27,718 bases of DNA. Origin: Candidatus Marinamargulisbacteria bacterium SCGC AAA071-K20 (lineage in GTDB: Bacteria; Margulisbacteria; Marinamargulisbacteria; GCA-2716485; AAA071-K20). Under the pieces are notes generated by a model that was not told where the DNA came from, searched no databases, and was given only the letters and a program-made list of their open reading frames with translations. A program made the translations under genes and the position numbers. The stretch spans positions 1 through 27,718 of the forward strand of contig QFBU01000016.1 of assembly GCA_003265975.1 (NCBI GenBank), in the 5' to 3' direction. Every line of letters begins with the position of its first letter. Position 1 is the stretch's first letter. Positions 27,674-27,718 of the stretch are shown one piece after another.

Positions 27674-27685
27674 CTGCAGCTGCAG
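27674..27685. repeat. 12-bp perfect palindrome CTGCAGCTGCAG (PstI-PvuII-PstI) abutting the terminal repeats
   Basis: Read directly from the sequence. It is its own reverse complement. Confidence 0.9.
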
Positions 27686-27686
27686 A

Positions 27687-27718
27687 CCCTAACCCTAACC
27701 CTAACCCTAACCCTACCG
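27687..27718. repeat. Telomere-type hexamer repeat (CCCTAA)4 plus a CCCTAC variant, running to the end of the window
   Basis: The sequence reads ccctaaccctaaccctaaccctaaccctaccg. The G-rich strand is the minus strand. Confidence 0.9.

What the first reader, a model, noticed from the sequence alone, without database searches (positions are those of the whole stretch)
27674..27718. Window ends in telomere-type (CCCTAA)n repeats preceded by a perfect CTGCAGCTGCAG palindrome, 21 bp upstream of a bacterial start codon
No known bacterial replicon carries TTAGGG-type telomeres. The repeat begins only about 30 bp upstream of the ATG of the Gly-rich gene (27653, minus strand), so that gene's promoter region is replaced by repeat and palindrome. 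The G-rich strand (minus) runs 5'->3' into the bacterial sequence, which is the wrong way round for a terminal telomere at the right-hand end of this + strand but is the orientation seen at the left (5') end of a eukaryotic contig. This fits three explanations: (a) a chimeric assembly or scaffolding join between a bacterial contig and a eukaryotic host contig end; (b) bacterial DNA laterally transferred into, and sitting next to, a eukaryotic subtelomere; or (c) an interstitial telomere-like repeat. The tandem PstI/PvuII palindrome exactly at the junction could also be a linker or adaptor artefact.
Basis: seen in the sequence. Interest (0 to 1): 0.7.

Follow-up and report, generated by a model that had tools for sequence, protein, structure and literature searches.

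The report
Host telomere repeat stuck onto bacterial contig
The telomere-type repeat at the end of this bacterial contig is most likely a laboratory or assembly chimera: the bacterium was sequenced from inside a single sorted protist cell, so host DNA was amplified in the same tube, and this is probably not a bacterial telomere or a gene transfer.

Summary
CTGCAGCTGCAG lies at 27674-27685, (ACCCTA)x5 at 27686-27715, then CCG and the window ends. It is the only such array in the window.

Provenance largely explains it. The window is a whole 27,718-bp contig of Candidatus Marinamargulisbacteria bacterium SCGC AAA071-K20. The source papers say this genome was binned by tetranucleotide PCA out of a single-cell amplified genome of a heterotrophic protist, a stramenopile from the Gulf of Maine. 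It was amplified by MDA, sequenced on Illumina and assembled with SPAdes, with 100 bp trimmed from each contig end. TTAGGG is the inferred ancestral stramenopile telomere repeat, and MDA is known to make chimeras.

The best explanation (about 0.77) is a chimeric junction between bacterial DNA and eukaryotic, probably host, telomere-type DNA. It sits inside or just upstream of an orphan Gly-rich gene. GenBank protein RAP38159.1 therefore begins with a spurious VGLGLGLGLG.

The palindrome is probably ordinary bacterial coding DNA (Ser-Ala-Ala-Ala-Asp), not a linker. The junction was not found in any other sequence searched, so nothing points to an adaptor or vector.

Rivals remain open because raw reads were not available: a native (Gly-Leu)n coding microsatellite (about 0.1) and real integration next to a host telomere (about 0.03). 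Interest is low.

The parts
27686..27715 (+). Five perfect ACCCTA units. This is the C-strand of a TTAGGG-type telomere repeat, and the G-rich strand is the minus strand. It is probably non-bacterial DNA.
   Evidence: It is the only such array in the window, against a chance expectation of 0.10.
27716..27718 (+). CCG, the first departure from the repeat and the last three bases of the trimmed contig.
   Evidence: The SCGC pipeline trims 100 bp from each contig end, so the raw contig probably ran about 100 nt further.
27673..27686 (.). 14-nt perfect palindrome TCTGCAGCTGCAGA (two PstI sites and one PvuII site). The chimeric breakpoint lies at or within it. On the minus strand it reads in frame as Ser-Ala-Ala-Ala-Asp.
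   Evidence: A 12/13-nt in-frame match to 27311-27323 of the same gene, also coding Ser-Ala-Ala-Ala. An imperfect extension of the inverted repeat to 14-nt arms (I9).
27654..27716 (-). Stop-free in-frame extension upstream of the GTG. GenBank annotates it as the first 21 residues of partial protein RAP38159.1 (VGLGLGLGLGSAAADSNARCN). The first 10 residues translate the telomere repeat and are probably spurious.
26574..27653 (-). Gly/Ala-rich orphan gene, 359 aa from GTG 27653. It is a bacterial gene whose true 5' end is uncertain and may be cut by the junction.
   Evidence: No Pfam or NCBIfam family. The only hit among 5.8 billion clusters and 1.84 billion representatives is itself.
1..27672 (.). 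Ordinary gene-dense bacterial DNA at 34-41% GC. It carries the C-terminus of a probable penicillin-binding protein (my reading of the translation), ThyA, FtsZ, an aminotransferase, tRNA-Val, IF-2, NusA, an FKBP-type protein (my reading), an NAD-dependent epimerase/dehydratase-family protein, a polysaccharide-biosynthesis (Polysacc_synt_2) protein and NIF3.

Best explanation
The last roughly 33-45 bases of the contig are an artefactual chimera. The DNA came from one sorted heterotrophic stramenopile cell that carried this Marinamargulisbacteria bacterium as symbiont or prey. After alkaline lysis, host and bacterial DNA were amplified together by phi29 multiple displacement amplification (MDA).

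Inferred mechanism: a free or displaced 3' end switched template between a host telomeric or telomere-like tract and the bacterial chromosome. The self-complementary CTGCAG/CAGCTG sequence may have served as microhomology. The resulting molecule reads 5'-(TTAGGG)n-T-CTGCAGCTGCAG-bacterial gene-3' on the minus strand.

Junction-spanning Illumina reads then carried the SPAdes contig out of the bacterial gene into the repeat. The contig stopped about one read length later, because reads made only of CCCTAA contain no G and the pipeline discards them as low complexity or human-like. The standard 100-bp end trimming left 33 foreign bases.

The contig stayed in the bacterial bin because 99.8% of it is bacterial. 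Automatic annotation then translated the repeat into the N-terminus of a partial protein.

Shown: the sequence, the provenance, the pipeline steps, and the absence of the junction elsewhere. Inferred: that the junction arose in vitro, that the donor is the host, and the template-switch details.
For: - Identity. The terminal ORF is NCBI RAP38159.1 (DID80_03375, partial) on a single contig of 27,718 bp, which is the whole window. Its organism name starts 'Candidatus Marinamargulisbacteria bacterium SCGC AAA', and AAA071-K20 is the only such name in the taxonomy.
- Provenance. bioRxiv 10.1101/328856 states that AAA071 cells were LysoTracker-sorted small heterotrophic protists, amplified by MDA, sequenced on Illumina and assembled with SPAdes 3.9. 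[quoted passage not shown]
- Host. Brown et al. 2020, Supplementary Table 2, lists AAA071-K20 as Stramenopile. TTAGGG is inferred to be ancestral for stramenopiles and is found in diatoms and other ochrophytes.
- Known artefact class. MDA chimeras arise by 3'-end re-priming, and over 70% use 2-21 nt of complementarity.
- Position. The feature sits at the very end of the contig. The pipeline removes human reads and reads with less than 5% of any base, and trims 100 bp per end (confirmed for this SAG by NODE_21 length 5697 -> 5497). By my arithmetic, 150-nt reads reaching more than about 95 nt into a G-free array fall below 5% G. That fits a dead end about 133 nt past the junction.
- Polarity. 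It is wrong for a capped end.
- Flanking DNA. The rest of the contig is intact, gene-dense bacterial DNA.
- Precedent. A human Alu concatenated onto the end of a 35-kb contig of a marine archaeon gave a junction-spanning false protein.
Against: - No reads, coverage data or untrimmed contig could be examined, so the junction is not shown to be artefactual.
- Intermolecular chimeras are the minority class in MDA. More than 85% are intramolecular inversions.
- Only 5 perfect units are seen and the array breaks with CCG, so a long telomere is not documented.
- The repeat is in frame with a Gly- and Leu-rich gene and reads (Gly-Leu)n. TTA GGG for Leu-Gly occurs once elsewhere in that gene, at 27507-27512.
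- Short perfect (CCCTAA)5 arrays do occur natively in finished Rhizobiaceae plasmids.
- That the 100-bp trimming and the read filters were applied to this particular deposit is inferred from 'as previously described'.
Confidence: 0.77

Rival explanations
1. Native bacterial repeat. (GGGTTA)n is a coding hexanucleotide microsatellite giving a (Gly-Leu)n stretch near the N-terminus of the Gly-rich orphan protein, or else a short intergenic microsatellite. Its identity to the telomere unit would then be coincidence. The contig ends there because repeat-covering reads were filtered, or simply by chance.
For: - The frame is open through the repeat and palindrome.
- The protein is rich in Gly, Leu and Ala, and contains GLG-type motifs and an internal Ser-Ala-Ala-Ala encoded by nearly the same DNA as the palindrome.
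- One in-frame TTA GGG lies at 27507-27512.
- TTA is the commonest Leu codon, at 41%.
- Finished bacterial plasmids hold perfect (CCCTAA)5 arrays.
Against: - A TTAGGG repeat is open in 2 of its 3 frames, and about half of all 11-codon windows here lack a stop. The open frame therefore carries little weight.
- GGG makes up only 10% of Gly codons in this gene and 17% in the window.
- The array lies within 33 nt of the contig end of a 27.7-kb contig, which has about a 0.3% chance if position is unrelated to the repeat (my estimate).
- The sample is known to contain eukaryotic DNA whose lineage's inferred ancestral telomere unit is exactly this hexamer.
- There are no homologues to test conservation.
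Confidence: 0.1
2. The same kind of in-vitro chimera, but the telomere DNA comes from human or another contaminant in the reagents or library rather than from the protist host.
For: TTAGGG is also the human unit. Human repeats are the main contaminant of bacterial assemblies.
Against: - The SCGC workflow uses cleanroom, decontaminated reagents and removes reads at least 95% identical to GRCh38.
- The host genome was present in the same well in far greater amount than any contaminant (inference).
Confidence: 0.07
3. A real in-vivo junction. Symbiont DNA, at least 27.7 kb, has been transferred into the host nuclear genome and lies beside a telomere-derived or interstitial telomeric tract.
For: The bacterium was physically associated with the protist cell. 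Such a junction would give the same contig.
Against: - All 26 ORFs of the contig are intact and densely packed, including FtsZ, IF-2 and NusA, as expected of a living bacterium.
- The polarity is not that of a healed or capped end.
- The junction is supported by one MDA product only.
- The contig stops about one read length beyond the junction instead of running on into host sequence.
Confidence: 0.03
4. The palindrome plus repeat is a synthetic linker, adaptor or vector sequence.
For: Tandem PstI/PvuII sites lie exactly at the junction.
Against: - There are no exact matches to the junction 22-mer in representative genomes or viral contigs.
- The 15 metagenome matches have a single CTGCAG and unrelated flanks.
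- PLSDB matches cover only the repeat, or (query 21-39) only the palindrome region, never both.
- The library was made with Nextera XT, which uses neither restriction sites nor telomere sequence.
- The palindrome fits the gene's own coding pattern.
Confidence: 0.02

Closest known systems
MDA (phi29) chimeras in single-cell genomes (Lasken & Stockwell 2007, PMC1855051)
   Same: The sample was MDA-amplified. There is an abrupt junction of two unrelated sequences. A short self-complementary sequence at the breakpoint could serve as the 2-21 nt priming complementarity.
   Different: The typical MDA chimera is an intramolecular inversion. This one would be intermolecular, between host and bacterial DNA. 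Read-level support could not be tested.
Eukaryotic repeat concatenated onto the end of a prokaryotic contig, giving a false junction-spanning protein (Breitwieser et al. 2019, PMC6581058; KF901147.1, AIF19795)
   Same: A foreign high-copy repeat sits at the end of a contig of tens of kb from a marine microbe. The deposited protein (RAP38159.1) is part genuine and part translated repeat.
   Different: The repeat here is a telomere hexamer, not an Alu. The probable donor is the protist host in the same well rather than human contamination.
Eukaryotic terminal telomere, TTAGGG type
   Same: The repeat unit is identical, with five perfect copies at a contig end.
   Different: The C-rich strand runs 5'->3' toward the end, which is the opposite of a capped end. 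Only 30 nt are documented and then the repeat breaks. The flanking DNA is bacterial.
Short interstitial telomere-like arrays (marine eukaryote metagenome contigs L003-L017; Rhizobiaceae plasmids L018, L019)
   Same: These are short (CCCTAA)3-8 blocks flanked by unique sequence. Some of the metagenome ones are also preceded by CTGCAG-A.
   Different: None shares the window's flanks or the doubled CTGCAG. Those arrays are internal to their contigs or replicons, not at an end.

Membership tests
Terminal eukaryote-type telomere | Tandem array of the lineage's telomere unit (TTAGGG/CCCTAA) | tested here: met
   ACCCTA x 5.0 with 100% matches at 27686-27715.
Terminal eukaryote-type telomere | The G-rich strand runs 5'->3' toward the physical end | tested here: not met
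   The + strand ends in the C-rich strand. The G-rich strand runs into the bacterial gene.
Terminal eukaryote-type telomere | A long array (hundreds of bp or more) reaching the molecule's physical end | not testable with these tools
   Only 30 nt are seen before CCG. The contig end is a trimmed assembly end. Raw reads are needed.
MDA chimera | The DNA was produced by phi29 multiple displacement amplification from mixed templates | tested here: met
   Provenance from the papers: protist SAG AAA071-K20, amplified by MDA, with host and bacterial contigs in one assembly.
MDA chimera | Two sequences that are not contiguous in any source genome are joined, often through 2-21 nt of complementarity | tested here: inconclusive
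   The change from bacterial coding DNA to telomere repeat is abrupt, at a self-complementary 14-mer. Neither parental sequence is available to define the microhomology.
MDA chimera | Junction reads are discordant with the bulk of reads or mates, with a depth change at the breakpoint | not testable with these tools
   There is no read access, and no independent assembly is on record.
Contaminant or foreign repeat at a contig end giving a spurious protein | A foreign repeat at the contig end and an annotated protein spanning the junction | tested here: met
   RAP38159.1 (380 aa, partial) begins VGLGLGLGLGSAAAD..., which is the translation of the repeat and palindrome.
Contaminant or foreign repeat at a contig end giving a spurious protein | The foreign part matches the donor genome | not testable with these tools
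   The host contigs of the SAG are not in the searchable collections. The repeat unit alone fits stramenopiles and also human.
Native bacterial coding microsatellite | In frame with a real gene and compatible with its composition | tested here: inconclusive
   It is in frame and reads (Gly-Leu)n in a Gly/Leu-rich protein. However, the open frame has roughly a one-in-three chance, and GGG is a minor Gly codon at 10-17%.
Native bacterial coding microsatellite | Present in homologues or in independent genomes of the species | tested here: inconclusive
   No homologue of the gene exists in 5.8 billion clusters or 1.84 billion representatives, so the feature cannot be checked.
Adaptor, linker or vector sequence | The same junction recurs in unrelated records or in vector/plasmid sequences | tested here: not met
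   There are 0 hits in genome contigs and viral contigs. The 15 metagenome hits lack the doubled CTGCAG and share no flank. No PLSDB match covers both palindrome and repeat.

The most novel reading that the evidence does not exclude
The junction is real in the cell. One version: the symbiont gene natively carries an in-frame TTAGGG-unit microsatellite, so a bacterial protein has a (Gly-Leu)n tract encoded by the host's telomere repeat, perhaps acquired from the host. The other version: a large block of Marinamargulisbacteria DNA is joined to the tip of a stramenopile telomeric tract in the host nucleus.
Probability: 0.12. Interest if true: 0.55.

Novelty: not a real feature. Interest (0 to 1): 0.1.

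Why it matters
The main value is as a data-quality flag. The last roughly 33-45 bases of this GenBank contig, and the first 10 (possibly 21) residues of RAP38159.1, should not be treated as Marinamargulisbacteria sequence.

It also shows that bins pulled out of protist single-cell amplifications can carry host DNA at contig ends, even after composition-based separation and 100-bp end trimming.

If the junction proved to be real, it would be physical evidence either of symbiont-to-host DNA transfer at a chromosome end or of host telomere sequence inside a symbiont gene. The present evidence does not favour either.

Tried and rejected
- Exact look-ups of seven proteins of the window to find an independent or longer assembly crossing the junction. 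These were the 359-aa and 380-aa forms of the Gly-rich protein, NIF3, the 625-aa polysaccharide-biosynthesis protein, the 325-aa epimerase/dehydratase-family protein, the 144-aa FKBP-like protein and a 109-aa protein. None is on record.
- Junction 22-mer scans. Representative genomes gave 0 and viral contigs gave 0. Metagenomes gave 15 hits, all unrelated eukaryote-like or repeat contexts with a single CTGCAG, so there is no recurring artefact sequence.
- Synteny through NIF3 in representative genomes. The nearest relative is only 41% identical and has different upstream genes, so it is uninformative.
- Homologues of the Gly-rich protein, to locate its true N-terminus. There are none, and no Pfam or NCBIfam family.
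- Ribosome-binding-site inspection, to decide whether GTG 27653 is the true start. Shine-Dalgarno use is inconsistent across the window's genes, so this is uninformative.
- The palindrome as a statistical oddity. Rejected, because 12-nt palindromes occur at the expected rate.
- A fold-back (inverted) MDA chimera. Rejected, because the sequence beyond the palindrome is not the reverse complement of the bacterial flank. Only 11 of 14 positions in each arm match.
- Martinez-Garcia et al. 2012, the original description of plate AAA071, is not held in the library.
- A linear bacterial replicon with eukaryote-type telomeres. Rejected on polarity, and because the contig end is a trimmed assembly end.

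Full report
**1. What is in the sequence**

The window ends ...GCGTTACTAT CTGCAGCTGCAG A CCCTAA CCCTAA CCCTAA CCCTAA CCCTA CCG. Tandem Repeats Finder reports ACCCTA x 5.0 at 27686-27715 with 100% matches. CCCTAACCCTAA with up to 1 mismatch occurs four times, all at this site, against 0.10 expected from shuffles. Elsewhere single CCCTAA or TTAGGG hexamers are scattered at background level.

Several details need correction:
- The perfect palindrome is 14 nt long (27673-27686).
- 12-nt perfect palindromes are not rare here: 12 in the window against 9.3 in shuffles.
- The start codon at 27653 is GTG.
- The frame of the Gly-rich gene stays open from 27653 to the contig end and reads VGLGLGLGLGSAAADSNARCN.
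- The perfect array breaks at 27716 with CCG.

**2. What the window is**

The rest of the window is ordinary, gene-dense bacterial DNA of 34-41% GC. It encodes:
- the C-terminus of a probable penicillin-binding protein (my reading of the translation);
- thymidylate synthase;
- FtsZ, an aminotransferase, a Band-7 protein, IF-2, an NAD-dependent epimerase/dehydratase-family protein, a polysaccharide-biosynthesis (Polysacc_synt_2) protein and NIF3;
- NusA and an FKBP-type protein (my reading of the translations);
- one tRNA-Val.

The terminal ORF has exactly one match among 5.8 billion protein clusters. That match is NCBI RAP38159.1, 'hypothetical protein DID80_03375, partial', 380 aa, on one contig of 27,718 bp, so the window is that whole contig. 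The organism name begins 'Candidatus Marinamargulisbacteria bacterium SCGC AAA'. The NCBI taxonomy holds only one such name, SCGC AAA071-K20.

**3. Provenance**

The paper describing these genomes (bioRxiv 10.1101/328856) gives the history of plate AAA071:
- The sample was taken at 1 m depth in the Gulf of Maine.
- It was stained with LysoTracker Green and sorted to target small heterotrophic protists.
[quoted passage not shown] '

Brown et al. 2020 (PMC7541821), Supplementary Table 2, lists AAA071-K20 as a Stramenopile. Eukaryotic nuclear DNA was therefore in the same amplification reaction and the same assembly as this bacterial contig. Fulneckova et al. 2013 (PMC3622300) infer TTAGGG as ancestral for stramenopiles and report it in diatoms and other ochrophytes.

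**4. Pipeline effects**

Stepanauskas et al. 2017 (PMC5519541) describe the workflow:
- Nextera XT libraries and 2 x 150 bp reads.
- Removal of reads at least 95% identical to GRCh38.
- Removal of reads with less than 5% of any nucleotide.
- SPAdes run with --careful --sc.
- 100 bp trimmed from each contig end.

The trimming is visible for this same SAG in Brown et al.'s table, where NODE_21_length_5697 is listed as 5497 bp.

A pure CCCTAA read has no G and would be discarded. I modelled 150-nt reads that cross the junction into a G-free array. Reads reaching more than about 95 nt into the array fall below 5% G. If the deposited contig was trimmed as usual, the raw contig ended about 133 nt past the palindrome, which is roughly one read length. 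That is what a dead end caused by filtered repeat reads would look like. The discarded 100 nt must contain a few G's, and CCG at 27716-27718 is the first. This step is inference from the published workflow, not from the reads.

**5. Nature of the palindrome**

On the coding (minus) strand, TCT GCA GCT GCA GAT reads Ser-Ala-Ala-Ala-Asp in the frame of the Gly-rich gene. The same gene contains CTGCTGCTGCAGA at 27311-27323. That is 12 of 13 bases identical, 363 nt (121 codons) away, and it also encodes Ser-Ala-Ala-Ala. A 14-mer search allowing 2 mismatches finds only these two sites, against 0.04 expected. GCA is the dominant Ala codon of this gene, at 18 of 35.

The palindrome is therefore more likely part of the bacterial gene than a linker. 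This would mean the gene extends upstream of the GTG and is cut by the junction. It is moderate evidence only.

**6. Is it a recurring technical sequence?**

The 22-mer CTGCAGACCCTAACCCTAACCC is absent from 185,579 representative prokaryotic genomes and from IMG/VR. It occurs in 15 JGI metagenome contigs. None of them has the doubled CTGCAG or any similarity in the flank. They are GC-rich eukaryote-like contigs with short internal telomere-like blocks, one 44-nt satellite, and one locus found in five samples.

A BLAST search of the last 69 nt against PLSDB finds only matches to the repeat or, separately, to the palindrome region, and never to both. No adaptor or vector explanation is supported.

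**7. Attempts to see across the junction**

- Exact look-ups of seven proteins of the window found no other assembly.
- The nearest NIF3 relative among representative genomes is 41% identical and has unrelated upstream genes.
- The Gly-rich protein has no homologue even in an exhaustive HMMER search of 1.84 billion representatives.

The true bacterial continuation therefore cannot be read with these tools.

**8. Interpretation**

The best explanation is an in-vitro chimera between bacterial DNA and eukaryotic telomere-type DNA, most probably from the stramenopile host. It would have formed during MDA by 3'-end template switching. Lasken & Stockwell 2007 report 2-21 nt of complementarity at over 70% of junctions. 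The self-complementary CTGCAG/CAGCTG could have served as that complementarity here.

The arrangement on the minus strand is 5'-(TTAGGG)n-bacterial-3'. This corresponds to bacterial DNA joined to the distal side of a telomeric tract. It fits either run-off and re-priming of a nascent G-strand, or a bacterial 3' end priming on a G-strand template. Polarity alone does not discriminate between these, but it does exclude a capped chromosome end or telomerase healing of a bacterial fragment.

A direct precedent for the consequence exists. A human Alu joined to the end of a 35-kb contig of a marine archaeon produced a junction-spanning false protein (Breitwieser et al. 2019). I put this explanation at about 0.77, with a further 0.07 for a non-host donor.

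**9. Rivals**

*Native (Gly-Leu)n coding microsatellite, about 0.10.* It cannot be excluded:
- The frame is open and the protein is Gly/Leu-rich.
- One in-frame TTA GGG lies at 27507-27512.
- Finished Rhizobiaceae plasmids carry perfect (CCCTAA)5 or longer arrays.

The points against it are stronger:
- The open frame has roughly a one-in-three chance: the repeat is open in 2 of 3 frames, and about 52% of 11-codon windows lack stops.
- GGG is a minor Gly codon.
- The position within 33 nt of a contig end is very unlikely unless the repeat caused the end.
- The hexamer is exactly the inferred ancestral telomere unit of the co-amplified host's lineage.

*Real integration into the host genome, about 0.03.* The intact, dense bacterial gene set argues against it, as does the contig stopping one read length beyond the junction.

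*Adaptor or vector, about 0.02.* See section 6.

**10. Verdict**

The finding is a correct observation of what is most probably an artefact. Interest is low (0.1).

The practical outcome is that bases from about 27674/27686 to 27718 of this contig should be flagged as probably non-bacterial. The N-terminal VGLGLGLGLG of RAP38159.1 should be flagged too. Read mapping of the SAG would settle the question.

Noticed in passing
L018 1470-1550 (A. fabrum pAt1D132b, NZ_CP033025.1 about 100700-100780); L019 1470-1530 (R. etli pRsp8C3a, NZ_CP017242.1 about 306830-306890): Complete circular Rhizobiaceae plasmids carry perfect (CCCTAA)5-7 arrays in intergenic DNA. In both, a T-DNA-border-like GGCAGGATATATA...GATGT sequence lies directly upstream of the array, and the A. 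fabrum record has 6 such places. This association of border-like sequence with telomere-type repeats may deserve its own look.
   Followed up: partly
L006, L011, L013, L015, L017 (JGI metagenome contigs Ga0209146_1014975, Ga0209367_1024040, Ga0209671_1012331, Ga0209454_1032090, Ga0056128_1037014): Five contigs from different metagenomes share an identical locus, ...gacgctggCTGCAGACCCTAACCCTAACCCtaaactttaaaaagcc..., over the 70 nt upstream and 90 nt downstream of the match that were displayed. The same organism or element recurs across samples. Its identity was not determined.
   Followed up: no
L007 (Ga0206682_10133735), about 200-330 on the reversed strand: A satellite of about 44 nt whose unit contains ggacCTGCAGACCCTAACCCTAACCCtagccc(c/t)(g/a)cccctgaacag. 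This is a telomere-derived tandem repeat in a seawater metagenome contig.
   Followed up: no
L005, L008, L009, L010, L014 (marine metagenome contigs): GC-rich, coding-looking sequence changes abruptly into short or degenerate CCCTAA arrays right after CTGCAG. L008 and L009 are the same locus from two samples. These are probably interstitial or subtelomeric tracts of marine picoeukaryotes.
   Followed up: no
window 4804-6315 (-), 8871-10655 (+), 13714-14769 (+), 26574-27653 (-): Four sizeable ORFs (503, 594, 351 and 359 aa) have no NCBIfam match. The 594-aa and 359-aa ORFs also have no Pfam match, the 503-aa ORF has only a sub-threshold spectrin-repeat hit, and the 351-aa ORF was not scanned against Pfam. 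The 359-aa protein has no homologue at all in 1.84 billion representatives. Lineage-specific proteins like these are typical of host-associated bacteria.
   Followed up: partly
window 11493-11568 (+) and 11679-11690: A single tRNA-Val (anticodon TAC) lies in a gap of about 700 nt that has no ORF of 80 aa or more. About 110 nt downstream is the only other GC-rich 12-nt palindrome of the window, TGGGCGCGCCCA.
   Followed up: no
L001 (NZFK01000046.1, 'MAG: Rickettsiales bacterium isolate MED721'): The closest NIF3 relative among representative genomes (41% identity) is labelled Rickettsiales. Downstream of NIF3 it has an aminotransferase-like ORF and two membrane-protein ORFs (my reading of the translations, not scanned), but the contigs are not collinear. 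The label may be a misclassification of a Margulisbacteria-related MAG. This was not checked.
   Followed up: no
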